64,000 nt of DNA from a virus, in the IMG/VR virus record IMGVR_UViG_3300042922_000346, positions 650 through 64,649 of that record. One strand, given 5' to 3'. A model generated the notes under the pieces. It was not told where the DNA came from. It searched no databases and worked only from the letters and a program-made list of their open reading frames with translations. A program made the translations under genes and the position numbers. How positions within the stretch are numbered: position 1 is the first letter of the stretch; every line of letters begins with the position of its first letter. Of this stretch, positions 3,081 to 26,648 are shown piece after piece.

Positions 3081-3112
3081 AAATAGGGGTTTATCCCCTA
3101 TTTTATTTTTAA
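3081..3112 (+). terminator. rho-independent terminator/attenuator after putative major tail protein
   Basis: AAATAGGGG-tttat-CCCCTATTT 9-bp stem followed by TTATTTTT. Confidence 0.7.
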
Positions 3113-6140: not shown

Positions 6141-6186
6141 GAGGATATTACAAACAAACTTGTGATATCCTCTTATTTTTTTTGTT
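6141..6186 (+). terminator. rho-independent terminator closing the lysis cassette, upstream of the tape-measure gene
   Basis: GAGGATATTACA-aacaaact-TGTGATATCCTC 12-bp stem (1 mismatch) followed by TTATTTTTTTTT. Confidence 0.75.
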
Positions 6187-11950: not shown

Positions 11951-11966
11951 GGAAGAAGGGGTTAAT

Positions 11967-12779
11967 TTGAATCAAATATTAGATATAGATTATACTGATT
12001 TTTATTATAATGGATATTGGTTATCTGATTTTGATGGTATGGCTATTGGGAGAACAGGGCAACCCCCTTTCTCCTTATTACCAACCCTTGAAATAGAAAG
12101 TGATAAAATAATGGGTAATGATGGTGAATTTGTATATAATTCATTTTATAATCCAAGAACATTCACTGTACCAGTAACATTTAATGATATTAGTAAATTG
12201 AGACAAATAGCTGGTTGGTTACATAGTAAAAAACCAACTGATTTTTATTATAAAAATGATGATATAAAAATATCAGTATTAAAAGAAGGTTTAATAGAAA
12301 TAACACCATATACATTGCAAGGAATAACAGAGTTAAAATTTATAGCACATGACCCGTTTTTCTATGCTATAAACGATACTATTTATTTGATAAATAAAAC
12401 AGGATATATTAAGACAACCGTAGATTTACCAGTAATTTCAAATACAATATATTCCGATAAAATACTTATTAGAAATTTTCTTGGAAGTAATATTAATATA
12501 TTAAATGAAGGTAATATAGAAAGTTATCCTATTTATGTTATTATTGGTACAGGTAATGTAAGTTGTTCTATAAACAATATATCATTTAATCTTGCATTAA
12601 ATTCGGGTGGAGATAAAGTATTCGTAGATACAAAGTATTTAACAGTATATGATAGCCAATATAATAGATTAAATAGTTTTGATGGTAATTTCCCTTTATT
12701 AAAAAGTGGTATGAACACAATATCTACAAGTGGAAATATTCAATCGTTGCAAGTAAAATGTAGGTCAAGATGGATATAA
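11967..12779 (+). CDS. distal tail protein (Dit-like)
   Basis: Immediately downstream of tape measure; N-terminus FYYNGYWLSDFDGMAIG...GNDGEF resembles siphophage Dit N-terminal pattern. Confidence 0.45.
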   Translation: MNQILDIDYTDFYYNGYWLSDFDGMAIGRTGQPPFSLLPTLEIESDKIMGNDGEFVYNSFYNPRTFTVPVTFNDISKLRQIAGWLHSKKPTDFYYKNDDIKISVLKEGLIEITPYTLQGITELKFIAHDPFFYAINDTIYLINKTGYIKTTVDLPVISNTIYSDKILIRNFLGSNINILNEGNIESYPIYVIIGTGNVSCSINNISFNLALNSGGDKVFVDTKYLTVYDSQYNRLNSFDGNFPLLKSGMNTISTSGNIQSLQVKCRSRWI

Positions 12780-12793
12780 TGAGGTGAGTATAA

Positions 12794-13414
12794 ATGGAAT
12801 TAATAAAAAATATTGTTATAGATATAGATGGTGGTACTCTTACTAAAATAATTGCAAAACAAAGTGATGATAAAAGTAGAGTGTTACAATTTTCAATTGT
12901 AAATAGTGGCATACCAATTAATTTATCTGGACATACTGTTAAAATATATGCAAGTAAACCAGATGGATATCCTGTATTTAATAATGCAACAATATTAGAT
13001 GCTGTTAATGGTGTAATATCTATAGTGTTGACTAATCAGATTTTAGCTGTAAGTGGAGATGTTCAATGTGAATTAGTTATTTTAAATAATAATAATACCG
13101 TTATTTTATCTACTAAAATATTTGTATTGAGTGTTTTACCATGTGTTAGAAATGACCAAGCAATAGAATCATCTAGTGAATTTACAGCTTTACAGAAAGC
13201 ATTAGAAGATGCAGACTTTTTAATTCAAAAAGTAGAGTTAATTGATGATGAAGTTGATGTTATAATATCTGAAATGAACGACAAATTAGATTTAGCAAAT
13301 GAACAAATTGATAATATGATTTCAAGATATGAAAGTGTAACGTATATATATGTTGCTACTACTGCTCCATCTACTGGTGTATTAAGTGGTCACTTTTGGT
13401 ATAAATTAATTTAA
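12794..13414 (+). CDS. baseplate protein with BppU-like N-terminal domain and coiled-coil C-terminus
   Basis: IVIDIDGGTLTKI...LQFSIVNSGIPINLSGHTVKIYASKPDGYPV...DAVNGVISIVLTNQILAVSGDVQCELVIL follows the BppU_N pattern. Confidence 0.45.
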   Translation: MELIKNIVIDIDGGTLTKIIAKQSDDKSRVLQFSIVNSGIPINLSGHTVKIYASKPDGYPVFNNATILDAVNGVISIVLTNQILAVSGDVQCELVILNNNNTVILSTKIFVLSVLPCVRNDQAIESSSEFTALQKALEDADFLIQKVELIDDEVDVIISEMNDKLDLANEQIDNMISRYESVTYIYVATTAPSTGVLSGHFWYKLI

Positions 13415-13426
13415 GGAGGAAAGGTT

Positions 13427-15937
13427 ATGGCAAATTATAATTTTCAAATAACTCAAAGAAATTCAACAAATACAGCTTGGGATAATATGTATCCTGCAAC
13501 AAAAGCAGAAATTGTAAATACTGCGGATGGTGTTACATTAGAATCTCTTTTGGGTAAAACAGATAAACAAACAGCTACAATAGCTAGAGGTATTAATAGT
13601 TTAACTGTGCCACAAGCAAGTACTGCTAGTGTTGGCATAACTGGTAGAAATACAATAAATTTATTAGGTATAGCTGGTAATTGTGAAACTTTAAGCAATT
13701 TTTATAGAGCTTCGGGTACTGGATTGATAAGTTTAGATTCTACTAATAAATTATTTGGAAATAACAGTGTTAAAATGACTGTCGAATCTGGTGGTAATGT
13801 CGTATACGCAATAAATAACTATAACATGGTACAAGCTGATAAATATTATTGTCTCAGTGCCTATTTTAAAAATGTTAGTGCGGTTGAATGTTTTGTGGTT
13901 ATGAATGGTATTACTGGTAGTAATGCAAATGATATATCATCGTTTAAGAGAAGTATTTTGAAAATATCTCCAGCACAGATAGAAGTACCGCTAGATAATA
14001 GTAAAAATAGATTTAGAATATGGATAAATGGTTCTAATGGAACTTATGCATATGTTGATGGAGCTATGCTTATAGAAATAACTCAAGCAGAATATAATGA
14101 CCCAAACTATGTACCACCAGAATATGTAGATAGTTTTCAACCAGTAAGAAATCCTTATATTGTTAGACGAGGTAAAAATTTAGTAAGAAACGGTAACGGC
14201 GAAGAAGGAATTAGTTGGTGGAGTTTGAGTTATGGTGCAGTTAATCCAAGATTTGAGAATGGGTATTTTGTAGTTGAAGATGACTCTACTCTATATAATC
14301 GAGGGTACAATCAAGTAGTTCCTGCAAAACCAAATACTCAATACACATTTTCTGTAATTGGAAAGCGTATTACTTCAAATGCTAGAGTTCAAATATATGA
14401 AGTAGACGAAGATAATCTAAGTTCATCTGGAATCCTACTCGGTAATACAGTGCTTACAAATACTGTGGATACAAAACTGTCTGTAACAGGAACTACCAGT
14501 GCTAATGCAAAGAGGATACGTGTTGCAATTATATCCGGTTTTACTGTAGCTGATGTTGGTATAGCATACTGTAAAGAAGCTATGCTTGTTGAAGGTTCAT
14601 CAACTCCCAGTATATACGAACCATATAATGAAGATTATTTATTCTTTGAAACTGATTTATATGATGGAGAAAACTTACAAGAGGTTGATGGTAAATATAT
14701 TAGATATAAAAAATGGAATAAAATTACTTTAGATAATAAATTTACTACAACAATAAGTTCGTTTACACCAGTTAGGAAAAATATTAGAATATCTGATTGT
14801 CTATATAATGTAAATACTGTTATAAATGGAGCATTAGTATTAAATTGTATTAAGTATGATGGTAAAATATTAAAACTAGATACTTTAACAGATATAGACC
14901 AATTTACAACCGATAGACCAAATGGAATAGTATGGTTATCTGTTTCAAATAATGAAACTGGATGGGGAGAAAGTTATACTCCAACATCTGATGAAATTAA
15001 TGCTTATTTATTGGGTTGGGTAATGAGTGATGCAAATGGTAATCATTATTCTGGTGGACAAAAATTTTGGACGAGAATATATTGTGGTATAGGTACTAGT
15101 ACAGCATCAACAAGTTTCGGTATGAAAGTAATTGGAGCATATACAAACACTTGTCCTACAGTAATGAATGACCAAGGATATACTCCATATGAAATGCATT
15201 ATCAATTAGCAAATCCAATAACAGAAGAAGTCAAAACAGAAGGTTCTTTGTCTTTAGTTGAGGGAATTAATAATTTTGAAGTCGGAGAAGGAATTATAAT
15301 TAGGGAGAATATAAGAGAATTTGGTTCATGGAGTAATGGTATATATCTTGGAGATACAAGCACAACAGAACCTCAATTCAAATATAATCCTTATAAAATA
15401 TTGAATTTATATAAAAACAATTATGAAGATATTGGGAAATGGTATAGTTATTATAGTCCTACCAATATCCAAGGTTTAGATAAACTCACTACAACTAAAA
15501 ATAATTATGATTCTAATGCGGTTTATACTACTACTTATATAATGATAGATAAATATAAATTCTCTTCATCTATTCCAAATATTACTTTATATTATAATAA
15601 TACTTTAAGACAAGCAACAAATGTCTTATTAGATAAAGCAACAGATATATTAAATGAATCAAATATAAATAAATTAGCTATATATAATTCTGAATATATG
15701 GAGAATTTTAAATCAGATTCTATGAAAGGTACTATAGTAATACCTACATTAGATAGTAATGGTAATGTTACTAAAATCGACCATAAAAGAGTGAGTGATG
15801 GAGCTATTTTAAGAACAGATATATTTGATTATAGTATACTTAACCAAATAATAGAAACAAGAAAAGATGCTTTAATAAATAAAACAGTAATAAAATATAC
15901 GTATCATTTAGATACGTTACAAACGGAGGTTTTATAA
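13427..15937 (+). CDS. tail protein / putative receptor-binding protein (836 aa)
   Basis: RBS AAGGAGGAAAGG; large ORF in tail-tip module. Confidence 0.5.
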   Translation: MANYNFQITQRNSTNTAWDNMYPATKAEIVNTADGVTLESLLGKTDKQTATIARGINSLTVPQASTASVGITGRNTINLLGIAGNCETLSNFYRASGTGLISLDSTNKLFGNNSVKMTVESGGNVVYAINNYNMVQADKYYCLSAYFKNVSAVECFVVMNGITGSNANDISSFKRSILKISPAQIEVPLDNSKNRFRIWINGSNGTYAYVDGAMLIEITQAEYNDPNYVPPEYVDSFQPVRNPYIVRRGKNLVRNGNGEEGISWWSLSYGAVNPRFENGYFVVEDDSTLYNRGYNQVVPAKPNTQYTFSVIGKRITSNARVQIYEVDEDNLSSSGILLGNTVLTNTVDTKLSVTGTTSANAKRIRVAIISGFTVADVGIAYCKEAMLVEGSSTPSIYEPYNEDYLFFETDLYDGENLQEVDGKYIRYKKWNKITLDNKFTTTISSFTPVRKNIRISDCLYNVNTVINGALVLNCIKYDGKILKLDTLTDIDQFTTDRPNGIVWLSVSNNETGWGESYTPTSDEINAYLLGWVMSDANGNHYSGGQKFWTRIYCGIGTSTASTSFGMKVIGAYTNTCPTVMNDQGYTPYEMHYQLANPITEEVKTEGSLSLVEGINNFEVGEGIIIRENIREFGSWSNGIYLGDTSTTEPQFKYNPYKILNLYKNNYEDIGKWYSYYSPTNIQGLDKLTTTKNNYDSNAVYTTTYIMIDKYKFSSSIPNITLYYNNTLRQATNVLLDKATDILNESNINKLAIYNSEYMENFKSDSMKGTIVIPTLDSNGNVTKIDHKRVSDGAILRTDIFDYSILNQIIETRKDALINKTVIKYTYHLDTLQTEVL

Positions 15938-15938
15938 T

Positions 15939-17693
15939 ATGGATATAATGACTTATAATAAGATAAATGAAGTCGCTCAAAATATCAATGGTGGGAATGT
16001 TTTTAAGACATATCCCACTTATTCATTTAATCCACCTGTAGTTGGACAACCTTGTGCCTTATATCAAGATGGTATCATTGCTAGTGCGCAAGTTCGTCCG
16101 ATGGGAAGATATGCTAGATTAGCTAATGCTATAAGTAATTATGCTACATTTAATTCAAGTATTACTCCAACATGGCATCCAAGAATGAATGAATATAATA
16201 TGGATAGGGTTAGTACAGGTAAATATATACACAGATATTTTCGAGAGGGTACAATGTTTTGTAAAATAGTTACAGATAACGGTAATTCAATCACACAAGG
16301 AACAGAATTAAATTTAGGTTTATCCAGAAATAATGTATTATTTGGAGATAATGATTATATGATTTATAGTAAATTATTGAGTAGTTCTGTATATGTTATA
16401 TTTTATAAAGGTATTAGTACTCAAAATGGCACTATTCGGGCATTGGTTATAACAATATCTGGAACAACTTGTACTTTAGCAAATACGTATGATATTGTTG
16501 TTACACAATCATCTGCATCAAAAGATACATTTGATATAGAATGTAATGCAGATAACACTAAAATAATTTGTGTATATAATAAATCTACCGCATATAACAC
16601 TTATGCAATTGTAATTACAGTAAGTGGTTCTACTTTTTCATTGGGTACGGAGGTATTAGTCCATACTAAAGTTACGTATAATGATATATATCCTTCAATT
16701 ATAAAATTAAATTCAACATTATTTGTTATAGGATGTCAACAAGATAATAATCCAAGAAATAGATATTTTATACCAGTTGCTATAAATGGAACATCTCTTA
16801 CTTTAAATACTGCATATAGTATATCATCTTGGATAGGTGCAAATAAAATGACTTATTATGCAGATGGATATTTTTTAGTTAATGGAGGAACGACAAGTAA
16901 CACTATTACAATGCTTAATTATAATGGAACTAGTTGGAGCACAATATCTACTAAGGTAGTAAGTAATAATACAATGTCTTCCTATACTAATCTAATGTTG
17001 GATAACGATGGTATATCTACGAATAATGTTGTAAGAATTACAGATATAAACAAAACAGGTATATCAACTGTAAAAGTAAATGCAGATTATACATTAGGTA
17101 CGGTATATAACACCATACATGGGGTTTATTCCCAAGGTTCAATTGGAATTGTAAATACTAGTTATGGAATGATGTTATTTGTAAATAGATGGAATCATCC
17201 TACATTAACTGGATTAGATTATGAGTATTATCCTATAGATGGTAATAGTGGATGGAGTGGATTATCTGCAATGCAAACATTGGGTAATATGTCTGAATAC
17301 CCAAATAAAGGTAATCTTTCTTTTGTAGTAGGGTGTTCATATGATTCATCAACGGATAGAATAATGTTGGCTATTGCAACTTTAACTTCTGTGTATAGTG
17401 ACGATACTAGTTATTATTTAATGACAACTCACTTTGAAGTATTTAATCAAACTGAGTTAACAATAAGTAGAGTAAATATAAAATCTGTAGCAGGATTATA
17501 TTTAGGAAATGGTAAGGTATTATTAAAAGGCATTGGAACTACATCTGGCTTAATACCTTCATTAAATTATTATAGTCATCCAGATACAGGATTATTTAAT
17601 TATGATAGTACTACAACAAATGGTTCTCCTGCTATATATGTTGGTCAAGCATTAAGTACTACTGAATTATTAATTAATGAATTTATTATATAA
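15939..17693 (+). CDS. tail fibre-like protein (584 aa; Ser/Thr/Asn/Gly-rich), XkdV-like by position
   Basis: Composition typical of fibre/RBP; followed by XkdW/XkdX-like small genes. Confidence 0.45.
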   Translation: MDIMTYNKINEVAQNINGGNVFKTYPTYSFNPPVVGQPCALYQDGIIASAQVRPMGRYARLANAISNYATFNSSITPTWHPRMNEYNMDRVSTGKYIHRYFREGTMFCKIVTDNGNSITQGTELNLGLSRNNVLFGDNDYMIYSKLLSSSVYVIFYKGISTQNGTIRALVITISGTTCTLANTYDIVVTQSSASKDTFDIECNADNTKIICVYNKSTAYNTYAIVITVSGSTFSLGTEVLVHTKVTYNDIYPSIIKLNSTLFVIGCQQDNNPRNRYFIPVAINGTSLTLNTAYSISSWIGANKMTYYADGYFLVNGGTTSNTITMLNYNGTSWSTISTKVVSNNTMSSYTNLMLDNDGISTNNVVRITDINKTGISTVKVNADYTLGTVYNTIHGVYSQGSIGIVNTSYGMMLFVNRWNHPTLTGLDYEYYPIDGNSGWSGLSAMQTLGNMSEYPNKGNLSFVVGCSYDSSTDRIMLAIATLTSVYSDDTSYYLMTTHFEVFNQTELTISRVNIKSVAGLYLGNGKVLLKGIGTTSGLIPSLNYYSHPDTGLFNYDSTTTNGSPAIYVGQALSTTELLINEFII

Positions 17694-17719
17694 GAAAATA
17701 TAAGAAAGAAGGAATAATA

Positions 17720-18109
17720 ATGTTAAAAAAATTAATTACATTAAAACAAATAAATAATATAGTTATAGGTATGCATAGTGTTGCTAAAAAAGAAGGAGAC
17801 GATATCGTTACTGGAGATGATATTGTCTATAGTAATATTGGTGATATCTTAGACATTATAGCAATAGATTCAGATGATTTACCAAGTGATTTTGAATTAT
17901 CAAAATATTGCTATACTGAAAATGATGGATTTTATTTAAATCCAGATTATGTAGCACCACAACCACCAATACCATCTTTAGAAGATGAAATAAGGAAATT
18001 ACAAGCAGAATTATTTTTAAAAGACAGTATAATTGAACAGCAATCGGTAAGAATTGATTCAACAGAAAGTGCTATTATGATGCTCATGGATATAACCATG
18101 GGTATGTAA
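17720..18109 (+). CDS. XkdW-like small tail-associated protein (129 aa)
   Basis: Position between fibre gene and XkdX-like mini-gene; acidic. Confidence 0.35.
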   Translation: MLKKLITLKQINNIVIGMHSVAKKEGDDIVTGDDIVYSNIGDILDIIAIDSDDLPSDFELSKYCYTENDGFYLNPDYVAPQPPIPSLEDEIRKLQAELFLKDSIIEQQSVRIDSTESAIMMLMDITMGM

Positions 18110-18141
18110 TATATATTTAAAAATTTATAGGAGGAATGTTT

Positions 18142-18297
18142 ATGTACGGATTTATTTTAAACATGTGGATTATGAGGAAATTAACAGCACAGAAGGTTCA
18201 GTCTTATGTACCATTTTATATTACTCAAGAGGAATGTGACATGATATTAGCAACACCACAAAATCCATTACCAACAGTTACAGAAACAGAAGTATAA
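18142..18297 (+). CDS. XkdX-like mini-protein (51 aa), below the ORF-track length cut-off
   Basis: RBS TAGGAGGAA 6 nt upstream of ATG; KLTAQKVQSYVPFYITQEECDMIL resembles XkdX family consensus; followed by terminator. Confidence 0.45.
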   Translation: MYGFILNMWIMRKLTAQKVQSYVPFYITQEECDMILATPQNPLPTVTETEV

Positions 18298-18308
18298 CAA
18301 ATATAAAA

Positions 18309-18346
18309 TAAGGGAGAAAGACGTCTTCTCCCTTATATTTTATAGA
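18309..18346 (+). terminator. rho-independent terminator/attenuator between the two tail-tip modules
   Basis: TAAGGGAGAA-agacgtc-TTCTCCCTTA 10-bp stem then TATATTTTAT; only 14 nt to next start, so likely a leaky attenuator. Confidence 0.65.
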
Positions 18347-18359
18347 ATGAGGTGGGAAC

Positions 18360-20216
18360 GTGGAAAGGATAGATATTTTAGATTTAGTTTATAATAGACT
18401 AGCTATTTTAAACGATAATTCAGATTTTTCAATAAAAGATGATATAGAAGAGAATTTAAAATTAAATGAAATAAATAAATTAAGTTTCTCTATACCTGTA
18501 GATTCTGAAAAGTTTAAATATTTAATTAATGAAAATTTAGTTTATTATAAAAACGAATTATATATAATAAAAACACCAAAACTAGAACATACTCAAAACG
18601 ATGTAAGAACATGTAATATTGAATGTTATCATTTGTCTAGTGGATTACAAAGTATGTTAATAGAACCAATTGTTTCAGAAGATGATACAAGAAATGGTAT
18701 AGCAAAAACAGCAACACAATTATTAACATTAATATTAGATGGTACTGGATGGTCTATTGGTGAAGTTGATGCATTGGATACGGTTAAACGTAGTTTACTC
18801 TGTGATGAACAATCAGTGTTTGATACATTATTACAGGTAGCTGAATTATTTGATTTAAACCTAATATTTTCAGCAAATCCATCTCAAAGGACAGTAAGTT
18901 TAAAAAAGGCTATAGATAGCGGATTTATAATAAGAAAAAATAAAAATTTAAAGAACTTATCTTTACAATATGATAGTAGTGAAATAGTAACTAAATTACA
19001 TGTTTTTGGTGGACAAGATTTAGATACAGGAAATACAATAAGTATTCATGAAGCGTATGAGAGAGATGCGGAAGGAAATATAATATATGAGAATGGTAAT
19101 CCAGTATTACATGAAACCTCTTATATTATAGATTATTCGTATTATTTATCTTTAGGATATACTTTAGATTATATTGAACAACACCCAGAACATTTTTTAA
19201 GAGAACAGACTTGGATAGCTTCTGAATATTTAGTAGCGGATGATTTATATGTTGATGCATTAAAGAAAATGAAAATATTAGCTAAACCAAAAGTTACAGC
19301 TACTATAGATGCTTATGATATGTCGGGAATATCAGAACACAAGACTCATGCTCCAATATTGAGTGAATTAGTTCATATTATAGATGATGATTTTAAACTT
19401 ATATTAGAAGCGAAAATTATAGGTATAAAAAGATATGCAAAAAATCCTAATTTAAAATTAGAAATTTCAAATGAAGTAGAATATGATAGTATGATAAAGA
19501 GATTAATATCTTCTTCTGAAAAATTTAAAAAGGTATTAAATCCTCAAGGTGGAATTAGGTTAGCAAATGATACAGTTAATGGAGGAATAGATACAAGTTA
19601 TATTAAGCTATCATCAACCTCTGGTAATTGGTATACCGACAATAATGGATTTTTAGTATTTGAGAATCCAAATAAAACACAAGCAATAAGAATGGGTAAT
19701 GGTAATATAGATATATCTAATTCAAAAACGCCAAGTGGAAATTATGTGTATACTTCTTTTGGTAATGGTGCTGGATTTAATGCAGATAATATTACAAAAG
19801 GTATTTTAAGTAGTAATAGTATAAAATGGGACTTAGTAAATAATACATTTATGATTACTAACCCTATAGACCCAAATGATTATTTATTAAAATTTGATGG
19901 TTCTCAATTATATATAAAAAACAATATATCCAGTGTTACATGGGAAGGTATACAAAATAAACCAAATTTTGCTACTGTTGCAATTACTGGGAATTATGAT
20001 GATTTAACTAATAAACCAAAAGATAAACATGTCCATATACAGACAACTCCCTCATTAGTATGGACAATAATTCACGATATGAATAAATTCCCTTCTGTCA
20101 CAATAGTTGATAGTGGAGGAAATGAAGTAACTGGGAAGAAAAGATATGTGGACGAAAATACAGTAGAATTAACTTTTTCACCATATGCCTTTTCTGGTAG
20201 AGCATATTTAAATTAA
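18360..20216 (+). CDS. Tal-like tail-tip protein (618 aa), GTG start
   Basis: N-terminus IDILDLVYNRLAILNDNSDFSIKDDIEENLKLNEINKLSFSIPV...YLINENLVYYKNELYIIK matches the N-terminal pattern of siphophage Tal/antireceptor proteins; RBS GAGGTGGG. Confidence 0.5.
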   Translation: MERIDILDLVYNRLAILNDNSDFSIKDDIEENLKLNEINKLSFSIPVDSEKFKYLINENLVYYKNELYIIKTPKLEHTQNDVRTCNIECYHLSSGLQSMLIEPIVSEDDTRNGIAKTATQLLTLILDGTGWSIGEVDALDTVKRSLLCDEQSVFDTLLQVAELFDLNLIFSANPSQRTVSLKKAIDSGFIIRKNKNLKNLSLQYDSSEIVTKLHVFGGQDLDTGNTISIHEAYERDAEGNIIYENGNPVLHETSYIIDYSYYLSLGYTLDYIEQHPEHFLREQTWIASEYLVADDLYVDALKKMKILAKPKVTATIDAYDMSGISEHKTHAPILSELVHIIDDDFKLILEAKIIGIKRYAKNPNLKLEISNEVEYDSMIKRLISSSEKFKKVLNPQGGIRLANDTVNGGIDTSYIKLSSTSGNWYTDNNGFLVFENPNKTQAIRMGNGNIDISNSKTPSGNYVYTSFGNGAGFNADNITKGILSSNSIKWDLVNNTFMITNPIDPNDYLLKFDGSQLYIKNNISSVTWEGIQNKPNFATVAITGNYDDLTNKPKDKHVHIQTTPSLVWTIIHDMNKFPSVTIVDSGGNEVTGKKRYVDENTVELTFSPYAFSGRAYLN

Positions 20217-20227
20217 GGTAAGGAAAG

Positions 20228-23200
20228 GTGAATATAATGTTACATTTTGATAGTTTAGATTTAGTGCAAAATGAATTACTTAATGCTAGAATACAGAATC
20301 TAGCAACTGCTCCTGTCAACCCAGTAGAAGGTCAAATTTATTATAACACAGCACAAAAAGCATTCATGGGATGGAATGGAACTTCATGGATAAATATAAG
20401 TTTAATATTTACTAATAAAGCAATATTGGATGCTATTACAGCTTCATATACAACCGAAGAACAAACAAAATTATCTGGTATTAGTACTGGAGCAAATAAA
20501 GTTGAACAAAGTGGCACGAATGGAAATATAAAAATAGACGGAGTTGAAAAAACAGTTTATACTCTTCCTGCAACTCTTCCTGCTACTATAATATCACAAG
20601 ATAGTTCCCATAGAATGGTGACAGATACCAATATTTCAACATGGAATGCAAAAGCATCAACCACTTTAGCTACTACTTCCGTTAATGGATTAATGTCAAC
20701 GACTTACGCTTCAAAATTAGAAGGTATTTCTGCAAATGCTAATAAAGTAGAACAAAGTTCAACTAATGGAAATATTAAAATAGATGGAGTAGAAAAGGTA
20801 GTATATACACATCCTACAGGTACAAATCCTCATGGGACTACAAAGAGTGATGTAGGATTAGGTAACGTTGAAAATAAAACATCTGCAACAATAAGAAGTG
20901 AAATAACTAGTGCAAATGTTACAACTGCATTGGGATTTACACCTGTAAAAAACGGAGGTAATGTTCCAGAATTTAGATATGGAACAGAAGCAAGTAGACC
21001 ATCTGCTACTGGGAGTAATTTAGTTTATTTTTCAGATGAAGGTAAAATATATAAAGATATAGCTGTTGGAACATGGAAACAAATGGGTGGACAAGATTTA
21101 TCTCCAGCTACAACAACTGAATTAGGATTAATTAAAGTTGGAGCAAATTTATCTATAGGTACAGATGGCACATTAAATGCGAATGATAACCCTGCAAGTT
21201 TTATAAGAAAACAGGAAAGATTTATAGGTGGAGTTGGACAAACAGTATTTAATTTGACAAAGGGTGTTTATCAACCAAATACTGGAGCAATGACATGGTA
21301 TTTAAATGGTAGTAAACAAGATGATTCTGCTTTAGATGAAATATCCTCAACTAGTGTTGGTTTGCCATCTGGACTTCCAGACGGAATGGAAATAATGTTT
21401 GAATATTATCAAGTTACAAATTGGAATCCATTTCCATATCATGCAAGTGAACATTTGACAGATGGAGATGACCCAATTCCAAAGGCAACTAGTGTGGCTG
21501 ATGGATTAATGCCAAAAGAAGCTGTAACAAAACTTAGTGGAATTGCTGATAATGCTAATAATTATATTCATCCTACAGGGGATGGTAATTTACATGTTCC
21601 TGCAAATGGAACTACTAATAATGGTAAAGTTCTTAAAGCAGGGAGTACGGCAGGCAATATTGCTTGGGGAACTTTAACAGCTAGTGATGTTGGAGCGATT
21701 GATACATCTGATGTAGTAACAACCGCAACTGCAAACAAAATATTAAGATTAAATGCTTCATCTCAACTTCCTGCATCAATAACAGGCAATGCAGTAACAG
21801 CTACCACTTTAGCTACATCTAGAACAATTGGTGCTTCTGGAGATATAACAGCGACAGGAGTAGCTTTTAATGGTGGTACGAATATTACACTAGTAACTAC
21901 TCTTTCTAATACTGGAGTAACAGCAGGAACTTATCCGAAGGTTACAGTAGATGCTAAAGGTAGGGTAACTGGAGGAACTAGTTTATCTGCTAGTGATATA
22001 CCAGTATTAACAGCATCTAAAATAAGTGATTTTGATTCAACTGTTGTAGCACATTCTATAAGTGATTTTGCTTTACCAACAACTGATTTTAATGTAAACA
22101 ATCATAAAATAACTAATCTTGCTACTCCTACAAGTGGCTCAGATGCGGTAACAAAAGACTATGCAGATGCATTAAGGTCTGGATTAAGTTTAAAAGACCC
22201 AGTTAAAGCTACAACTACAGCAAATATAACCTTGAGTGGTACTCAAACCATTGATGGAATTGCACTTGTAGTAGGAGATAGAGTACTTGTAAAAAACCAA
22301 ACAACAGCATCTCAAAATGGTATATATATTGTAGCTAGTAGTACATGGACAAGAGCGACCGATGCAGACAATACGCCAAGCAATGAAATACGAGAAGGTA
22401 TGACTTGTTGGGTAAATCAAGGTACGACATATGGTAATACAAGATGGGTAATGACTACAGCAGACCCAATTACACTTGGAACAAGTTCTTTGGTTTTCAC
22501 AAAAGATTTCCAAGCTAGTGATATAGTTGCAGGAACAGGATTGACTAAAAGTGGAAGTACTTTATCAATTACAAATGTTGGAACAGCAGGAACTTATACA
22601 AAGGTAACTACTAATGCACAAGGACAAATAACTAGTGGTACGACATTAGATGCTACAGATATTCCAGATTTAGATTGGAGCAAAATTACAACAGGTAAAC
22701 CTACTACATTATCTTTATATGGAATTACAGATGCCGTTAATACATCTGACGTAGTTACTACTGCTACGGCTAATAAGATATTAAAATTAAACGCAAGTTC
22801 TCAATTGCCAGCTTCTATAACAGGCAATGCGAATACAGCAACAACATTAGCAACTGCAAGGACTATAACTATGAGTGGAGATGCTACATCCTCTGCTATA
22901 TCATTTAATGGTGGTGCAAATATATCTATTCCGTTGACATTGTCTGCTTCTGGAGTTACAGCAGGGAATTATTCTAAAGTAACTGTAGATAGTAAAGGTA
23001 GAGTTACAGCAGGATTAAGTATGGCTAGTTCAGATATTACAACGGCATTAGGATTCACTCCAGCCAAAAAAGTTACATTCAATGTTGGAAATGGTACAAA
23101 TAATGAAATAACTGTAACACATGGATTAGGAACAATGGATTTTACTGTATCAGTAAGAGCAAATGCAACACCATACGAATTTGTTACTGTTGGAATATTG

Positions 23201-23284
23201 CCAATAGATAGTAATAGTGTAAAGTTAAGATTTGGTTCTTATATTCCAGCAATTAATGAATTTAAGGCGGTTATTACAGGTTAA
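20228..23284 (+). CDS. long tail fibre (1018 aa) with internal duplicated modules
   Basis: Two ~24-aa ANKVEQS.TNGNIKIDGVEK.VYT repeats near N-terminus and two ~100-aa SDVVTTATANKIL.LNASSQLPASITGNA.TATTLAT...VTAG.Y.KVTVD.KGRVT repeats. Confidence 0.6.
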   Translation: MNIMLHFDSLDLVQNELLNARIQNLATAPVNPVEGQIYYNTAQKAFMGWNGTSWINISLIFTNKAILDAITASYTTEEQTKLSGISTGANKVEQSGTNGNIKIDGVEKTVYTLPATLPATIISQDSSHRMVTDTNISTWNAKASTTLATTSVNGLMSTTYASKLEGISANANKVEQSSTNGNIKIDGVEKVVYTHPTGTNPHGTTKSDVGLGNVENKTSATIRSEITSANVTTALGFTPVKNGGNVPEFRYGTEASRPSATGSNLVYFSDEGKIYKDIAVGTWKQMGGQDLSPATTTELGLIKVGANLSIGTDGTLNANDNPASFIRKQERFIGGVGQTVFNLTKGVYQPNTGAMTWYLNGSKQDDSALDEISSTSVGLPSGLPDGMEIMFEYYQVTNWNPFPYHASEHLTDGDDPIPKATSVADGLMPKEAVTKLSGIADNANNYIHPTGDGNLHVPANGTTNNGKVLKAGSTAGNIAWGTLTASDVGAIDTSDVVTTATANKILRLNASSQLPASITGNAVTATTLATSRTIGASGDITATGVAFNGGTNITLVTTLSNTGVTAGTYPKVTVDAKGRVTGGTSLSASDIPVLTASKISDFDSTVVAHSISDFALPTTDFNVNNHKITNLATPTSGSDAVTKDYADALRSGLSLKDPVKATTTANITLSGTQTIDGIALVVGDRVLVKNQTTASQNGIYIVASSTWTRATDADNTPSNEIREGMTCWVNQGTTYGNTRWVMTTADPITLGTSSLVFTKDFQASDIVAGTGLTKSGSTLSITNVGTAGTYTKVTTNAQGQITSGTTLDATDIPDLDWSKITTGKPTTLSLYGITDAVNTSDVVTTATANKILKLNASSQLPASITGNANTATTLATARTITMSGDATSSAISFNGGANISIPLTLSASGVTAGNYSKVTVDSKGRVTAGLSMASSDITTALGFTPAKKVTFNVGNGTNNEITVTHGLGTMDFTVSVRANATPYEFVTVGILPIDSNSVKLRFGSYIPAINEFKAVITG
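21701..22007 (+). repeat. first copy of ~300-bp intragenic tail-fibre repeat (second copy 22741-23040)
   Basis: Protein-level duplication ~80 % identical read from translation. Confidence 0.5.
22741..23040 (+). repeat. second copy of ~300-bp intragenic tail-fibre repeat
   Basis: See 21701-22007. Confidence 0.5.
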
Positions 23285-23311
23285 ATTAAGAGATAGGTTG
23301 GAGGGAAACTA

Positions 23312-24517
23312 ATGAAGATATTTGATTTTGAATTTAAATTTAATGGATTTGATATATGGCATAAAGGAAATCAAGGAGCAGGAAGTGGACTAGATGCAGA
23401 CACTCTTGACACTAAACAAGCTTCTGATTTCCAACAATTAACAAATGGTGGAGCATATGGTATATTCCCTTCTACTGCTAGTACAATGGTTGGAAATGAA
23501 TATAATTTATTACTAAATGCTCATACAAGAAGTGGACTAACTATTACTCAAAGCGGAACAGGACTATTAAGTTCACCTAATACATTATTTGATGGAACAG
23601 TAGTCGCTACTTATTCTACTGATGGTATAAATCCAACAAACCCATATGTATTACTTATAACAGGTTTACCAAATACTCATACTCAAACAGGTGGTGTTTT
23701 AGGTTGGAGTTCAAGATATTGGTATCCAAGTAAATATAAAATTGAAGTATATGATTCTTATAATAGTATAGGGTGGAAAACAATTGTTGACCAATCTGTT
23801 ATAGATAAACCAACGAAAGATTTATTGATACCAATTTATCCAACTTATTCTGGTAGCTTTACGCAAATAAAAATTACAATATATGAATCAACGGTTGGAG
23901 CGCAAGGAGCAAACGGATATAATAAATGGGGTTTAAGTGAGTTATTTTTTTGTCACCCCGAAGCTATGAGAGTTCATCAATATTTACATGTTGATAGCGC
24001 AGATAGATTAGAAACTCCAAGGAATATAAATGGAGTTCCCTTTGATGGACAGTCAGATATAACAATAACAGCAAACCCAAATACTCACACGCATACTATT
24101 GCAAATGTAACAAGTTTACAAACAGCTTTAGATAGTAAAGCACCATCTGGATTTGGATTAGGTACAGTTGCAACTACTGCTACTGTAGATTGGAATAATT
24201 ATGTTACTACAGGATTTTTCATGGGGACAGGATTATTAAATGAATGTGAAGGTGGTTCATGGAGATTTTGTATGGTAATAAGACACAATGATTCATATGT
24301 ATCTCAAACGATGTGGGACTTTAATGGTACAAGAATGTGTCAAAGGAATAAAGTTAATGGAACATGGACAACTTGGAGAAGATTAGATGTTACAAAACTA
24401 AGTGAGTTAGAAAATGATATTGGAGCAGGAGGTACGGGTGGATATCCAAAAATAACTACGAGTAGTACTGCTCCATCATCTCCAGCAATAGCTGATATTT
24501 GGTGGAAATTATTATAA
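23312..24517 (+). CDS. tail fibre / receptor-binding protein (401 aa)
   Basis: RBS GGAGGGAAAC; last structural gene before lysin. Confidence 0.5.
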   Translation: MKIFDFEFKFNGFDIWHKGNQGAGSGLDADTLDTKQASDFQQLTNGGAYGIFPSTASTMVGNEYNLLLNAHTRSGLTITQSGTGLLSSPNTLFDGTVVATYSTDGINPTNPYVLLITGLPNTHTQTGGVLGWSSRYWYPSKYKIEVYDSYNSIGWKTIVDQSVIDKPTKDLLIPIYPTYSGSFTQIKITIYESTVGAQGANGYNKWGLSELFFCHPEAMRVHQYLHVDSADRLETPRNINGVPFDGQSDITITANPNTHTHTIANVTSLQTALDSKAPSGFGLGTVATTATVDWNNYVTTGFFMGTGLLNECEGGSWRFCMVIRHNDSYVSQTMWDFNGTRMCQRNKVNGTWTTWRRLDVTKLSELENDIGAGGTGGYPKITTSSTAPSSPAIADIWWKLL

Positions 24518-24531
24518 AGGAGAAAGGTATT

Positions 24532-25518
24532 ATGGAAGATATGAATAAATTTAAATTAGGTGCAATACCTTCTGGAAAAGACGAAAGAGATTTTAATATA
24601 TCTAAATTAGTGGCTACAGTAAACGTATTTCCAAGTGAATTTTGTTTAGATTTAGATGGAATAGAAATACAAGACCAAGGAGAGGTAGGGTGTTGTGTTG
24701 GAGAGTCTTTAGCATATACAAGATTTTTAACAGAGAAGAAACAAACAGCAAAAACAGATTTATTTAGTGTAGGATTTATATATGGTACAAGAGAAGAAAC
24801 AGATTATCAAGAAGATGGAATGCGACCAAGAGAAGCATTAAAAAATCTTCAAAAATATGGTACTGTACTTCATAAAGATTTCCCTTATTTAGAAGAAGTT
24901 CCAAATATAATTAATAGAGTAAGACAACAAAATAATGTATTATTACCAAAAGCAGAACCTTTTAGAATTAGTGCTTATGCAAAATTAGATAATGAATTTT
25001 CAATAAAAAATGCGTTAATGCAAATTGGAGCAGTAACAACAATGATTGCTGTAGATTGGGCATTTATGTGTACAGGTAGTGACGGATTAGTTCCTACTAA
25101 TTTAGTATTTAATCCATATATGGGATTCCATCAAATTACTATAGTAGGATGGAGAGAAGATGGAAAATGGATATGTTTAAATAGTTGGGGAAAAGGATGG
25201 GGAGATAATGGTATAGTGTATTTAGATAAGAGTAAAACATTAGAATCATGGTCATTAACAGATACTATTGTTCCACAACCAGACCCAGAACCAATCACTA
25301 AATGGTATAGAGTACAAGTAGGTGCTTATCATAATTTAGAATATTGTTTAGCTTTTCAGCAAGAATTAAAAGACAAAGGTTTAGAAACTTATTTAGTTAA
25401 GATAGATGAATGGTATAAAGTACAATTAGGAGCATATCAAAACAAAGATTATTGCTATGCGTTTTTAGCTAAAGTACACGAAATGGGATACACTGATGCA
25501 TTTGTAGTATATTATTAA
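24532..25518 (+). CDS. lysin: papain-like (C1-type) cysteine peptidase domain fused to tandem SPOR repeats (ORF track begins at 24499; ATG at 24532 preferred)
   Basis: QGEVGCCVGES (Cys), GFHQITIVGW (His), LNSWGKGWGDNGIVYL (Asn/Trp) in papain order; PQPDPEP linker; C-terminal WYRVQVGAYHNLEYCLAFQQEL...WYKVQLGAYQNKDYCYAF is a duplicated SPOR-like motif; RBS AAAGGAGAAAGG before 24532. Confidence 0.6.
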   Translation: MEDMNKFKLGAIPSGKDERDFNISKLVATVNVFPSEFCLDLDGIEIQDQGEVGCCVGESLAYTRFLTEKKQTAKTDLFSVGFIYGTREETDYQEDGMRPREALKNLQKYGTVLHKDFPYLEEVPNIINRVRQQNNVLLPKAEPFRISAYAKLDNEFSIKNALMQIGAVTTMIAVDWAFMCTGSDGLVPTNLVFNPYMGFHQITIVGWREDGKWICLNSWGKGWGDNGIVYLDKSKTLESWSLTDTIVPQPDPEPITKWYRVQVGAYHNLEYCLAFQQELKDKGLETYLVKIDEWYKVQLGAYQNKDYCYAFLAKVHEMGYTDAFVVYY

Positions 25519-25601
25519 TCTTTATAAAACTAAGGTTTTAATAACATTTTATAAAACAAACAAGGTAGATAATTGGAGTAAATAAGAGATATACGGAGCA
25601 T

Positions 25602-25646
25602 GAGAGAGGTCACTTTATTAAATTAAAGTGTACTCTCTCTTTTTAT
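25602..25646 (+). terminator. rho-independent terminator after lysin gene
   Basis: GAGAGAG..CACTTTA-ttaaat-TAAAGTG..CTCTCTC two-part stem followed by TTTTT. Confidence 0.6.
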
Positions 25647-25655
25647 GTTGAAAGG

Positions 25656-26615
25656 ATGGTTAAAATGCCAGAAAGAAGTAAAAGAATTGAAACTTATGAT
25701 AAAAATAAGCTTTCTTTAATAAATGCACAAACATTACAAGATTATAGAAGATATAAGATAGATATGGAGATTAGAGAATTATCCCCAAAAACAGTTTATA
25801 ATTATGAATTAGATTTGTTCCAATGGTTTACTTATATTTATGAGAATCAAGGTAATATTTGTGTTAGAGAAATAATTGAAGATGATATTGTTGAGTTCTT
25901 ACATTTTTGTAAAACACAAGGTAATAATAGTAGAAGAATGAAAAGAAGAATGTCCTCTATTAGTGCTTTTTATAAATTCTTGAGAAAGAAAAAACTAGTT
26001 AAAGAAAATCCTATGGAAATGATTGATAGACCAAGAAAAGATACAGATATAGTTGAGCAAACTTACCTATCTCAAGAACAAGTAGCTTTAATGAGAGATA
26101 AATTAATTGAAAATAAAGATACTCAATTAGAACTTTACGCAAATTTATCCTTAAGTACTATGGCAAGAGTAAATGCAATTTCAAATATAAGATGGGAACA
26201 AATTGACTTTGATAAACGTAAAATTGATAAGGTATTAGAAAAAGAACAAAGATACGTTACTTTAAGATTTAATGAAAAATGTAAAGATTTATTTTTACAA
26301 TTAAGAGAAGAAAGAAGGAAAAACAATATTATAACTGAATATGTATTTAGTAGCTTTTATGGTGGACAATATAATAAAGTTAGTAATGTTACGTTAAATG
26401 ATTGGTGTAAAAAGATTGGAGAAATGATTGGAGTAGAATCTTTACATCCTCATGATTTCCGTCATACTTCTGCTACTTTATTAAAAAATTCTGGTATGCC
26501 TTTAGAAAGTATTAGTAAATTATTAAATCATATGGGTACGGATGTAACTTTAAAATTTTATATAAAAGAAGATGAAGAAAAGATACAACAAGAAAAAGAT
26601 AAATATGATTTTTAA
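25656..26615 (+). CDS. int: tyrosine site-specific recombinase (phage integrase / Xer-like)
   Basis: N-terminal SAM-like core-binding region; catalytic box HPHDFRHTSATLL (HxxR) and C-terminal LKFY tyrosine region; RBS AAAGGATGG. Confidence 0.8.
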   Translation: MVKMPERSKRIETYDKNKLSLINAQTLQDYRRYKIDMEIRELSPKTVYNYELDLFQWFTYIYENQGNICVREIIEDDIVEFLHFCKTQGNNSRRMKRRMSSISAFYKFLRKKKLVKENPMEMIDRPRKDTDIVEQTYLSQEQVALMRDKLIENKDTQLELYANLSLSTMARVNAISNIRWEQIDFDKRKIDKVLEKEQRYVTLRFNEKCKDLFLQLREERRKNNIITEYVFSSFYGGQYNKVSNVTLNDWCKKIGEMIGVESLHPHDFRHTSATLLKNSGMPLESISKLLNHMGTDVTLKFYIKEDEEKIQQEKDKYDF

Positions 26616-26648
26616 AAAGAGAGGAATTTCCTCTCTTTTATTTTAATA
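26611..26648. terminator. bidirectional intrinsic terminator shared by convergent integrase and polymerase genes
   Basis: AAAAAGAGAGGA-att-TCCTCTCTTTT 11-bp stem flanked by A-run on one side and T-run on the other; both stop codons lie in or at the stem. Confidence 0.75.

What the first reader, a model, noticed from the sequence alone, without database searches (positions are those of the whole stretch)
11967..24517. Two successive tail-tip/receptor-binding modules separated by an attenuator
After tape measure comes one module: Dit-like, BppU-like, an 836-aa protein, a 584-aa fibre, then XkdW/XkdX-like mini-genes and a terminator at 18309-18346, an arrangement that normally ends a tail operon. 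Only 14 nt later a second module starts with a Tal-like antireceptor (GTG start), a 1018-aa fibre with internal 100-aa duplications, and another 401-aa fibre. This may give the virion two receptor-binding specificities or record a recent module acquisition. The long internal repeats (21701-22007 vs 22741-23040) are substrates for recombinational host-range variation.
Basis: partly seen in the sequence, partly recalled or inferred. Interest (0 to 1): 0.5.

Follow-up and report, generated by a model that had tools for sequence, protein, structure and literature searches.

The report
Receptor-binding cassette inserted between dit and tal
In this Clostridium-type phage the two core tail-tip genes (dit and tal), which normally sit side by side, are split by a five-gene receptor-binding cassette ending in a hairpin, so the region encodes one composite tail tip in an unusual gene order, not two separate tips.

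Summary
All nine ORFs, the hairpin at 18308-18336 (13-14 nt before the GTG of the next gene) and the internal repeats of the 1018-aa fibre are present.

There is one Dit (11967-12779) and one Tal (18360-20216), not two complete modules. In seven independent relatives of these two proteins, tal follows dit directly. Here 5.5 kb lies between them: a BppU_N adaptor, an 836-aa fibre with tandem carbohydrate-binding domains, an orphan 584-aa protein and two small XkdW/XkdX-like genes.

The cassette is not recent. A second lineage has it at both junctions, with the same synonymous divergence as the flanks. GC3 is uniform, and dN/dS is 0.1-0.3.

The hairpin does not mark an operon end. Similar hairpins sit at conserved positions before essential genes across the family, including directly after dit in nearer relatives. 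No strong promoter precedes tal here, so tal must be reached by read-through.

An unrelated Anaerocolumna-type phage has the same Dit-BppU-fibre-small-small-hairpin-Tal order, so the layout recurs.

The fibre repeats are old (65-74% nucleotide identity, longest exact run 14 nt) and poor recombination substrates.

Verdict: a new variant of a known kind, of moderate interest.

The parts
6296..11950 (+). Tape measure protein (1884 aa)
   Evidence: PhageMin_Tail 8.8e-25, phrog_4211 1e-89
11967..12779 (+). Dit, distal tail protein (270 aa). It is the hub of the tail tip and the left flank of the cassette.
   Evidence: phrog_33 1.6e-29. First gene after the tape measure. 18 homologues found.
12794..13414 (+). 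Short BppU_N-only adaptor (206 aa), first gene of the inserted cassette
   Evidence: Pfam BppU_N 85.7 bits (cut-off 23.1) over residues 17-139. 93% identical in L015. dN/dS 0.11.
13427..15937 (+). 836-aa fibre or receptor-binding protein with tandem carbohydrate-binding beta-sandwich domains
   Evidence: phrog_13022 1e-88. 39 homologues, mostly Clostridium prophage tail proteins. The AF2 model has confident beta-sandwiches at about residues 80-400. Foldseek matches tandem CBM22, CBM16 and CBM-cenC phage tail proteins.
15939..17693 (+). 584-aa orphan protein, beta-rich with weak ~55-aa periodicity; presumed second receptor-binding component
   Evidence: No Pfam, PHROG or PDB hit. Only weak hits among 1.84 billion representatives. 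C-terminal 262 aa are 78% identical in L004, dN/dS 0.31. Internal periodicity. Single-sequence AF2 model unusable, pLDDT 37.
17720..18109 (+). XkdW-like small protein (129 aa)
   Evidence: DUF2977 0.004 and phrog_300 5e-4, both weak. Position after the fibre genes. 84% identical in L004, dN/dS 0.15.
18136..18297 (+). XkdX-like small protein (53 aa), last gene of the cassette
   Evidence: 41% identity to the small protein in the XkdX position of Pd_22F. Home-made XkdX HMM 9e-26, though this protein was in the seed. dN/dS 0.16.
18308..18346 (+). Terminator-like hairpin (stem 18308-18336) with an interrupted T-tract, 13-14 nt before the tal start
   Evidence: The stem is kept in L004 through two A-U to G-C double changes.
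18360..20216 (+). Tal (618 aa, GTG start), right flank of the cassette. The N-terminal ~400 aa are conserved and the C-terminal ~200 aa are lineage-specific.
   Evidence: Prophage_tail 84.7 bits, Prophage_tailD1 35.2 bits. 33-44% identity to the Tal proteins of L008, L011, L012, L013 and L014 over residues 1-~400/500 only.
20228..23284 (+). 1018-aa tail fibre with repeated shaft domains and a Dec-like OB domain
   Evidence: phrog_38707 2e-157, phrog_7389 5e-82. Residues 490-940 match P2 gpH-type and AP45 fibres at 52-58%. Residues 662-780 match capsid decoration protein 9nx3.
21699..21885 (+). Internal repeat, copy 1 (partner at 22737-22923)
   Evidence: Families D1 and D6, offset 1038, 71-74% identity. 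Longest exact run 14 nt.
22737..22923 (+). Internal repeat, copy 2
23312..24517 (+). 401-aa fibre-like protein
   Evidence: PTR 1.5e-5 (below cut-off) and several tail-fibre PHROGs at 1e-7 to 1e-10
6141..6172 (+). Terminator-like hairpin just upstream of the tape-measure gene, the same class of element as 18308
   Evidence: Equivalent hairpins in L008, L010, L012 and L013.
3081..3103 (+). Terminator-like hairpin just after the tube gene
   Evidence: Equivalent hairpins in L008, L010 and L014.
26615..26639 (+). Hairpin at the true end of the rightward gene block, where transcription converges with the minus-strand genes

Best explanation
The region encodes one composite host-adhesion device, not two.

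Core and cassette:
- Dit (hexameric hub) and Tal (trimeric tip) are the single core pair.
- A 5.5-kb, five-gene cassette sits between their genes, from just after the dit stop codon (12780) to the hairpin (18336).
- The cassette holds a BppU_N adaptor, an 836-aa fibre carrying carbohydrate-binding domains, the orphan p584, and XkdW-like and XkdX-like small proteins.

Inferred roles, by analogy with TP901-1-type baseplates:
- The BppU_N protein docks on the Dit ring and carries p836 and/or p584 as peripheral, saccharide-binding receptor-binding proteins.
- Tal, with its lineage-specific C-terminus, carries the 1018-aa and 401-aa fibres distally.

How the order arose:
- The order is derived. The ancestral order in this Yom/SPbeta-type tail family is TMP-Dit-Tal, with a BppU-fibre-XkdW-XkdX-terminator string, where present, downstream of tal.
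- In the nearer relatives the dit|tal junction is already a transcript boundary (terminator hairpin, then a consensus promoter). That makes it a permissive landing site.

Role of the hairpin:
- It is either that ancestral post-dit hairpin or the cassette's own terminator.
- Either way it must be read through, or act only as a partial attenuator. tal is essential, and no promoter lies between the hairpin and tal.

Shown here: gene identities, derived order, age, purifying selection, conservation of the hairpin, recurrence in a second phage lineage.
Inferred: who binds whom, read-through, stoichiometric attenuation.
For: 1. Identities.

2. tal follows dit directly in seven independent relatives: Amboise, L008/L009, L011, L012, L013, L014 and L016 (tblastn maps). 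BppU_N genes lie after tal in phi3626, L013, FA67 and L071, and probably L070. The review PMC6115969 says 'After Dit usually follows a Tal-encoding gene' and that the BppU N-terminal domain attaches to the Dit hub.

3. The left junction is precise. The Dit C-terminal coding sequence (...CAAGATGGATATAA) aligns between the window and L008. After it, the window has an RBS and the BppU start, where L008 has a hairpin.

4. Nearer relatives have GGGGAG..CTCCCC hairpins straight after dit (L008/L009, L010, L011). L008 has TTGACA-17-TGgTATAAT and L014 has TTTACA-17-TGgTATAAT, both before tal.

5. The window has no comparable promoter on the + strand between 1 and 27000, apart from one site inside p401.

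6. Terminator-like hairpins sit at conserved slots before essential genes across the family.

7. XkdX genes elsewhere are followed by intrinsic terminators.

8. The second lineage (SRR28413650) has both junctions. dS is 0.38-0.64 and dN/dS 0.11-0.31 in cassette and flanks alike. GC3 is uniform.

9. The hairpin stem is kept through compensatory changes.

10. The same order, including a hairpin before tal, occurs in the otherwise unrelated phage contig L017/L018/L019. The closest isolated relatives of its Tal also have dit and tal adjacent (coordinates).
Against: - No direct evidence that any of these proteins is in the virion, or that BppU206 binds Dit.
- BppU206 has only the N-terminal domain and a helical stretch. 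The C-terminal receptor-holding domain of TP901-1 BppU is not detectable.
- p584 is an orphan with no usable model.
- The relatives used for polarity are distant (28-45% identity in Dit). The closest one with a readable junction other than L008, L010, has unrelated orphan genes after dit and its contig ends before any tal. The junction is therefore variable, and ancestry is inferred by parsimony only.
- The origin of the hairpin (ancestral or imported) is unresolved.
- Read-through is inferred, not measured. The left end of the operon and any phage RNA polymerase lie outside the contig.
Confidence: 0.65

Rival explanations
1. One reading: two autonomous tail-tip or receptor-binding modules in tandem. 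The attenuator sets their relative or alternative expression, giving two specificities, or the layout records a recent acquisition of 18360-24517.
For: There are two groups of large fibre-like genes on either side of a real hairpin. A fibre-XkdW-XkdX-terminator string usually closes tail operons. Several distinct receptor-binding-like proteins (CBM-rich p836, P2-H-like p1018, p401) make more than one binding specificity plausible.
Against: There is only one Dit and one Tal, and each group lacks one of them. The Tal side is the conserved backbone: Tal is 33-44% identical to family members where it follows dit. If either group is the addition, it is the first one. Neither group is recent.
Confidence: 0.1
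2. Dit-BppU-fibres-Tal is the ancestral order of this phage group, and the adjacency of dit and tal in relatives results from repeated loss or relocation of the cassette.
For: The same order occurs in a very different phage (L017). L010 also has non-tal genes after dit. Geobacillus phage GBK2 has one gene between dit and tal.
Against: Seven of nine sampled lineages of this Dit/Tal family, including the most distant ones (Amboise, the C. tetani plasmid), have adjacency. The relatives of L017's Tal also have adjacency. The genes inserted in L010 and GBK2 are unrelated to this cassette. The BppU proteins of the window and L017 are only 24% identical and are not each other's best match.
Confidence: 0.1
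3. The hairpin is an efficient terminator that ends a TMP-Dit-cassette transcript. tal and the distal fibres would then be expressed separately, from an unrecognised phage-specific promoter or through a dedicated antiterminator, which makes the two halves separately regulated units.
For: In L008 and L014 tal does have its own consensus promoter after dit. The hairpin is stable and conserved. It reads as a terminator on both strands.
Against: Only about 13 nt, holding the RBS, separate the T-tract from the GTG, and no sigma-A-type promoter was found nearby. The T-tract is interrupted (ATTTTAT). Equivalent hairpins precede the tape-measure gene, which cannot be dispensable. In SPbeta the late structural cluster is read as one operon by the pause-resistant phage polymerase YonO (PMC5467207, PMC8270828). 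That is an analogy only, because no YonO gene was seen in the window.
Confidence: 0.12
4. The arrangement is an assembly chimera that joins two phages.
For: The source is a metagenomic contig. The four Logan contigs break inside the cassette.
Against: Both junctions are covered by independent contigs from two different samples (L005 and L015 for the left, L003 and L004 for the right). GC3 is uniform and dS is equal across the region.
Confidence: 0.02

Closest known systems
TP901-1 / Tuc2009-type lactococcal baseplate (TMP-Dit-Tal-BppU-BppL)
   Same: Same parts list: a Dit hub, a Tal with the Prophage_tail fold family, and a BppU_N-domain adaptor presumed to link Dit to peripheral receptor-binding proteins.
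   Different: Here bppU and its fibres lie between dit and tal rather than after tal. The BppU protein is only 206 aa, with no recognisable C-terminal receptor-holding domain. The receptor-binding proteins are unrelated (CBM-rich p836, orphan p584). There are extra distal fibres after tal, and a hairpin lies inside the module.
SPbeta-type (Yom) siphovirus tail module: YomV/YomU tube, YomN, yomI TMP, yomH Dit, yomG Tal
   Same: The upstream genes carry YomV_2nd, YomU_Tube and YomN domains. Tal has a weak YOMG_N hit. Relatives include a 139-kb C. tetani plasmid with the same tail genes. The SPbeta late cluster is one long operon.
   Different: The host is a low-GC clostridial type. A cassette lies between dit and tal. 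No YonO polymerase is visible in the 64-kb contig.
PBSX-type terminal fibre string (fibre-XkdW-XkdX-terminator), as in C. tetani plasmid L013 and Paenibacillus phage Pd_22F
   Same: One or more fibre genes are followed by two small genes and an intrinsic-terminator-like hairpin. The p836 family occurs in about 20 myovirus-type prophages directly after baseplate-J genes.
   Different: In those phages the string closes the tail module. Here it is internal, upstream of an essential gene. The small proteins reach no Pfam XkdW or XkdX threshold.
Anaerocolumna-type phage contig (L017/L018/L019; IMGVR_UViG_3300042922_000451, GCA_029256765.1)
   Same: Identical order: TMP-Dit-BppU_N-(small/Ig-like genes)-p836 homologue-88 aa-48 aa-hairpin-Tal. 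Its 934-aa fibre is the best homologue of p836 (34% identity, 3e-104).
   Different: It has a different tape-measure and chaperone type (TMP_3, Phage_TAC_17). Dit is 26% and BppU 24% identical, and Tal is not detectably similar by BLAST. Its hairpin lacks a T-tract. There is no p584, and no long fibres follow tal.
Geobacillus phage GBK2 (NC_023612): TMP-Dit-GBK2_16-Tal
   Same: An isolated, sequenced phage with a gene between dit and tal.
   Different: It has a single 352-aa gene with no Pfam domain, no BppU, no XkdW/X and no hairpin reported.

Membership tests
Dit (distal tail protein, siphovirus hub) | Sequence match to Dit profiles | tested here: met
   phrog_33 1.6e-29 and phrog_202 7e-8. 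Pfam Sipho_tail scores 22.1 bits, just under its 24.2 cut-off. Homologues carry PF05709 and PF20195.
Dit (distal tail protein, siphovirus hub) | First gene downstream of the tape-measure gene | tested here: met
   The TMP gene ends at 11950 and Dit starts at 11967. The rule is stated in PMC6115969.
Tal (tail-associated lysin / Prophage_tail family) | N-terminal gp27-like domains (Prophage_tailD1 plus Prophage_tail) | tested here: met
   PF06605 scores 84.7 bits (cut-off 31.3) and PF18994 scores 35.2 bits (cut-off 23.6).
Tal (tail-associated lysin / Prophage_tail family) | Gene immediately follows dit (the usual synteny) | tested here: not met
   5.5 kb and five genes intervene. Synteny is a habit of the family, not a requirement for the protein.
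Tal (tail-associated lysin / Prophage_tail family) | C-terminal peptidoglycan hydrolase domain (present in many, not all, Tal proteins) | tested here: not met
   No hydrolase domain was found in residues 400-618, only PHROGs of unknown function.
BppU (baseplate upper protein) | BppU N-terminal domain | tested here: met
   PF10651 scores 85.7 bits (cut-off 23.1) over residues 17-139.
BppU (baseplate upper protein) | C-terminal domain that holds receptor-binding-protein trimers; docking on the Dit ring | not testable with these tools
   The protein is only 206 aa. After residue 140 there is a helical stretch and a short tail. No complex prediction was available.
XkdW / XkdX small proteins | Match to Pfam XkdW (PF09636) or XkdX (PF09693) | tested here: not met
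   Neither was hit. The 129-aa protein gives only DUF2977 at 17.6 bits (cut-off 21) and phrog_300 at 5e-4. The 53-aa protein has no hit.
XkdW / XkdX small proteins | Pair of small genes directly after the last fibre gene, followed by a terminator | tested here: met
   The same layout is seen in L013, Pd_22F and L017.
Rho-independent terminator / attenuator | GC-containing stem-loop followed by a U-tract | tested here: met
   11-bp stem with 4 GC pairs, 7-nt loop, tail ATTTTATAG. MFE -16.3 kcal/mol, z -3.5. The U-tract is interrupted.
Rho-independent terminator / attenuator | Actual (partial) termination of transcription in vivo | not testable with these tools
   Needs Term-seq, RNA-seq or in-vitro transcription.
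P2 gpH-type tail-fibre shaft repeat (for the 1018-aa protein) | Sequence similarity of the repeat unit to annotated tail fibres | tested here: met
   Residues 490-940 are 52-58% identical to the AP45 and phiCTX orf20 fibres, with 417 phage records matched.

The most novel reading that the evidence does not exclude
The dit|tal junction may be a preferred, transcriptionally insulated docking site for exchangeable receptor-binding cassettes in Firmicute siphoviruses. Cassettes headed by a BppU_N adaptor and ending in XkdW/XkdX plus a hairpin have settled there independently in at least two unrelated lineages: the window lineage and the Anaerocolumna-type phage. Unrelated insertions occupy the same spot in L010 and GBK2. 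If so, 'Dit-BppU-RBP-Tal' would be a second, recurrent baseplate gene order, and the hairpin would be a built-in attenuator that lowers expression of the low-copy Tal relative to high-copy peripheral receptor-binding proteins.
Probability: 0.25. Interest if true: 0.5.

Novelty: new variant of a known kind. Interest (0 to 1): 0.35.

Why it matters
Annotation pipelines and structural studies of Gram-positive siphophages rely on the TMP-Dit-Tal-(BppU/RBP) order to name genes and find host-range determinants. This is a clear, conserved exception that recurs at least once. A complete accessory receptor-binding cassette sits between the two hub genes and ends in a hairpin that has to be read through.

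It shows where such cassettes can be inserted without breaking the tail. That is useful for engineering host range, and it warns against treating a fibre-XkdW-XkdX-terminator string as the end of a tail module. It is otherwise an instance of well-known tail-module mosaicism, built entirely from known kinds of parts.

Tried and rejected
- Close relatives: megablast of 11000-25600 against 50,697 phage records found nothing. Scans of IMG/VR with Tal and Dit, and of metagenome and genome contigs with a Tal alignment, found no relatives. The lineage is rare, so the comparison rests on Logan, JGI and NCBI contigs reached through protein look-ups.
- The first Tal homologue search used too strict an E-value and returned only two proteins.
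- A BppU_N alignment was too divergent for a locus scan.
- A scan with L017's Tal found only L017 itself.
- p584: no Pfam, PHROG or PDB match. The exhaustive search gave only weak repeat-like hits, and those proteins have no Pfam domain. The single-sequence AF2 model has pLDDT 37, so no fold search was run on it.
- Recent foreign import, tested through composition, is rejected. The higher GC of 20-24 kb is a second-codon-position (amino-acid) effect, and GC3 is flat.
- Paralogy between the two halves is rejected. There is no significant similarity among the window's tail proteins.
- The L010 genes after dit are not relatives of the cassette.
- Rfam and tRNA scans of the region found nothing.
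- A literature search for descriptions of genes between dit and tal returned only irrelevant papers.
- No YonO-like polymerase was found. The large minus-strand ORFs are Pol III alpha, NrdD, GyrA/B and RecD2.

Full report
**Context**

The window is almost the whole of a 64.6-kb metagenomic contig with 26-35% GC. On the + strand, 1-26.6 kb carries tail genes. The minus strand carries replication and nucleotide-metabolism genes: Pol III alpha, NrdD, GyrA/B, RecD2 and NAMPT.

The tail genes upstream of the finding carry YomV_2nd, YomU_Tube and YomN domains. The tail is therefore of the SPbeta/Yom type. The head genes and the start of the late operon lie outside the contig.

**Observation check**

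All nine ORFs lie at the stated coordinates. Profile searches support these assignments:
- Tape measure, 6296-11950.
- Dit, 11967-12779: phrog_33 at 1.6e-29, with Pfam Sipho_tail just below its cut-off.
- A BppU_N-only protein, 12794-13414: 85.7 bits.
- Tal, 18360-20216: Prophage_tail 84.7 bits plus Prophage_tailD1.

The XkdW/XkdX labels for the 129-aa and 53-aa genes rest on weak hits and on position. The hairpin at 18308-18336 is real: -16.3 kcal/mol, z = -3.5. It is followed by ATTTTAT and lies 13-14 nt before the GTG.

The long repeats in the 1018-aa gene are present at a 1038-nt offset with 71-74% identity in the best blocks. Independent contigs from two SRA samples cover both junctions, so the order is not an assembly artefact.

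**What the proteins are**

- p836 belongs to a family of Clostridium prophage tail proteins. Many members have a tail-collar N-terminus or a CBM_4_9 domain.
- An AF2 model built on 34 homologues has confident beta-sandwich domains at about residues 80-400. These match tandem CBM22, CBM16, the carbohydrate-binding ends of Cry and Vip3 toxins, and CBM-cenC phage tail proteins. p836 is therefore most likely a saccharide-binding receptor-binding protein.
- p584 is an orphan. It has no library or PDB hit, and only weak repeat-like matches among 1.84 billion representatives. It shows a faint ~55-aa periodicity, and its model is unusable.
- p1018 is a true fibre. Its repeat unit is the shaft domain shared with P2 gpH-type, AP45 and many mycobacteriophage fibres. 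It also contains a Dec-like OB domain.
- p401 has fibre-repeat motifs.
- The two halves share no paralogous proteins.

**The key point: gene order**

I searched for homologues of Dit and read their genomic contexts. I mapped the window's proteins on them by tblastn.

- tal follows dit directly in Clostridium phage Amboise, L008/L009, L011, L012, L014, L016 and L013.
- L013 is a 139-kb C. tetani plasmid whose order is Dit-Tal-two small genes-BppU_N fibre-small-XkdX-terminator.
- Other phages with a BppU_N gene also have it after tal: phi3626, FA67, L071 and probably L070. This agrees with the literature (PMC6115969).
- In the window there is one Dit and one Tal, separated by the BppU-p836-p584-p129-p53 block.

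The two 'modules' are therefore not equivalents. The first is Dit plus an interposed accessory cassette. The second begins with the partner of that same Dit.

**Age and selection**

- A second lineage, from another sample, has Dit-BppU (L015: Dit 86%, BppU 93% identical) and p584-p129-p53-hairpin-Tal-p1018 (L004: 78%, 84%, 86%, 82% and 90%).
- Synonymous divergence is the same in cassette genes (0.38-0.64) and flanks (0.56-0.60). dN/dS is 0.11-0.31 throughout, including the two small genes.
- GC3 is flat at 0.09-0.14 in the tail-tip genes (0.26 in the 53-aa gene). The higher GC of 20-24 kb is a second-codon-position effect.
- The cassette was therefore in place before the two lineages split, is functional, and shows no compositional sign of recent import.

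**The hairpin**

The hairpin is conserved in L004. Two A-U pairs at the top of the stem are replaced by G-C pairs there. It is not a unique module boundary.
- Terminator-like hairpins also sit just after the tube gene (3081-3103) and just before the tape-measure gene (6141-6172). The same two slots are occupied in L008, L010, L012, L013 and L014.
- In the nearer relatives a GGGGAG..CTCCCC hairpin follows the dit stop codon (L008/L009, L010; a different one in L011).
- L008 has TTGACA-17-TGgTATAAT and L014 has TTTACA-17-TGgTATAAT, in both cases directly before tal.
- The dit|tal junction is thus already a transcript boundary in this family, which would make it tolerant of insertions.
- The window has no comparable promoter on the + strand before tal, and only the RBS fits between the T-tract and the GTG. 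tal, the distal fibres and the downstream lysin-like gene must therefore be reached by read-through.

Whether the hairpin is the ancestral post-dit element or came with the cassette is open. XkdX genes elsewhere are followed by terminators.

By analogy, the late cluster of SPbeta is read as one operon by the pause-resistant polymerase YonO (PMC5467207, PMC8270828). No such gene is visible in this contig.

**Recurrence**

- The best homologue of p836 (34% identity, 3e-104) lies in a 53.6-kb Anaerocolumna-type phage contig. Its order is TMP-Dit-BppU_N-four small or Ig-like genes-934-aa fibre-88 aa-48 aa-20-bp hairpin-Tal.
- That phage has a different tape measure and chaperone. Its Dit (26%) and BppU (24%) are only distantly similar, and its Tal is not detectably similar by BLAST.
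- The closest isolated relatives of its Tal (phiCT19406C, BMBtp1/13/16, HD29phi, phBC6A52) have dit and tal 0-6 nt apart (coordinates). The order is therefore derived there too.
- Among 49 further loci holding p836-family fibres, most follow baseplate-J genes of myovirus-type prophages. Two follow tal at a distance, and none shows the Dit-BppU-...-Tal order.
- Geobacillus phage GBK2 has a single unrelated gene between dit and tal. L010 has two unrelated orphan genes after dit.
- The layout is uncommon but not unique, and the junction looks permissive.

**Mechanism proposed**

This is one composite adhesion device.
- Inferred from TP901-1-type baseplates: the 206-aa BppU_N protein docks on the Dit ring and presents the carbohydrate-binding p836, and perhaps p584, as peripheral receptor-binding proteins.
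- Inferred: the two small proteins act in fibre assembly or have an unknown accessory role.
- Inferred: the Tal trimer closes the tube, and its lineage-specific C-terminal ~200 residues carry or position p1018 and p401.
- If the hairpin terminates partially, it would lower the output of Tal (three copies per virion in known systems) relative to the peripheral proteins. This is speculative.

**The repeats**

The ~100-aa duplications are diverged copies (65% identity over 330 nt, longest identical run 14 nt) of a shaft domain found across many phages. They record old domain duplication and are poor substrates for homologous recombination. Exchange with other phages' fibres through this shared domain is the more likely route to variation.

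**Verdict**

The finding is an unusual, conserved and recurrent gene order of known baseplate components: a new variant of a known kind, of moderate interest.

Noticed in passing
window 4547-6172: An Amidase_3 + PG_binding_1 gene (4547-5512) and two small ORFs (5523-5750; 5767-6135, weak Holin_LLH hit) lie inside the tail module, between the YomN-like gene and the tape-measure gene, closed by hairpin 6141-6172. The same slot holds Amidase_3 or Amidase_2 genes in L008, L010 and L014. This looks like a conserved lysis-like cassette where tail chaperone genes are normally expected.
   Followed up: partly
window 24499-26639: A second lysin-like gene (Peptidase_C1 + SPOR, TTG start overlapping the end of p401) is followed by a tyrosine recombinase (25656-26615) and a bidirectional terminator at 26615-26639, where the + and - strand gene blocks converge.
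   Followed up: partly
L008 10796-10904; L014 10793-10872; L010 10796-10830: Relatives carry a terminator hairpin straight after dit and a near-perfect extended -10 sigma-A promoter (TTGACA-17-TGGTATAAT in L008) immediately before tal. The hub genes dit and tal are therefore in different transcription units there.
   Followed up: partly
L002 (Paenibacillus phage Pd_22F, MZ092003) 9967-15310 and 16816-20790: This myovirus carries two tandem baseplate-J-x-fibre-XkdW-XkdX modules whose 3' flanks, including two terminator hairpins, are identical. This is a true duplicated distal module, unlike the window.
   Followed up: partly
L013 (Clostridium tetani plasmid AP026813, 138,965 bp): A 139-kb C. 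tetani plasmid encodes a full Yom-type tail module, two integrases, a holin and a lysin, and so looks like a phage-plasmid.
   Followed up: no
L005, L003, L015, L004 (Logan contigs of the window lineage): All four short-read contigs break inside the BppU-p129 stretch: p836 residue 716, p129 residue 110, BppU residue 122 and p584 residue 324. This hints at strain-level microdiversity in p836 and p584.
   Followed up: no
L008 4351-9987; L011 3848-9986: The tape-measure gene is split into two ORFs (438 + 1389 aa; 466 + 1259 aa) in two relatives, but is a single 1884-aa ORF in the window.
   Followed up: no
window 13369-13414 and 24470-24517: The C-terminal ends of BppU206 (...APSTGVLSGHFWYKLI) and p401 (...APSSPAIADIWWKLL) look alike by eye. 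This may be a shared short docking or beta-hairpin motif. It was not detected by BLAST.
   Followed up: no
window 26638-64000, minus strand: This block holds a large replication and nucleotide-metabolism set: Pol III alpha, anaerobic ribonucleotide reductase NrdD, GyrA and GyrB, a RecD2-like helicase and NAMPT. It fits a large (over 64 kb) phage of an anaerobe.
   Followed up: partly
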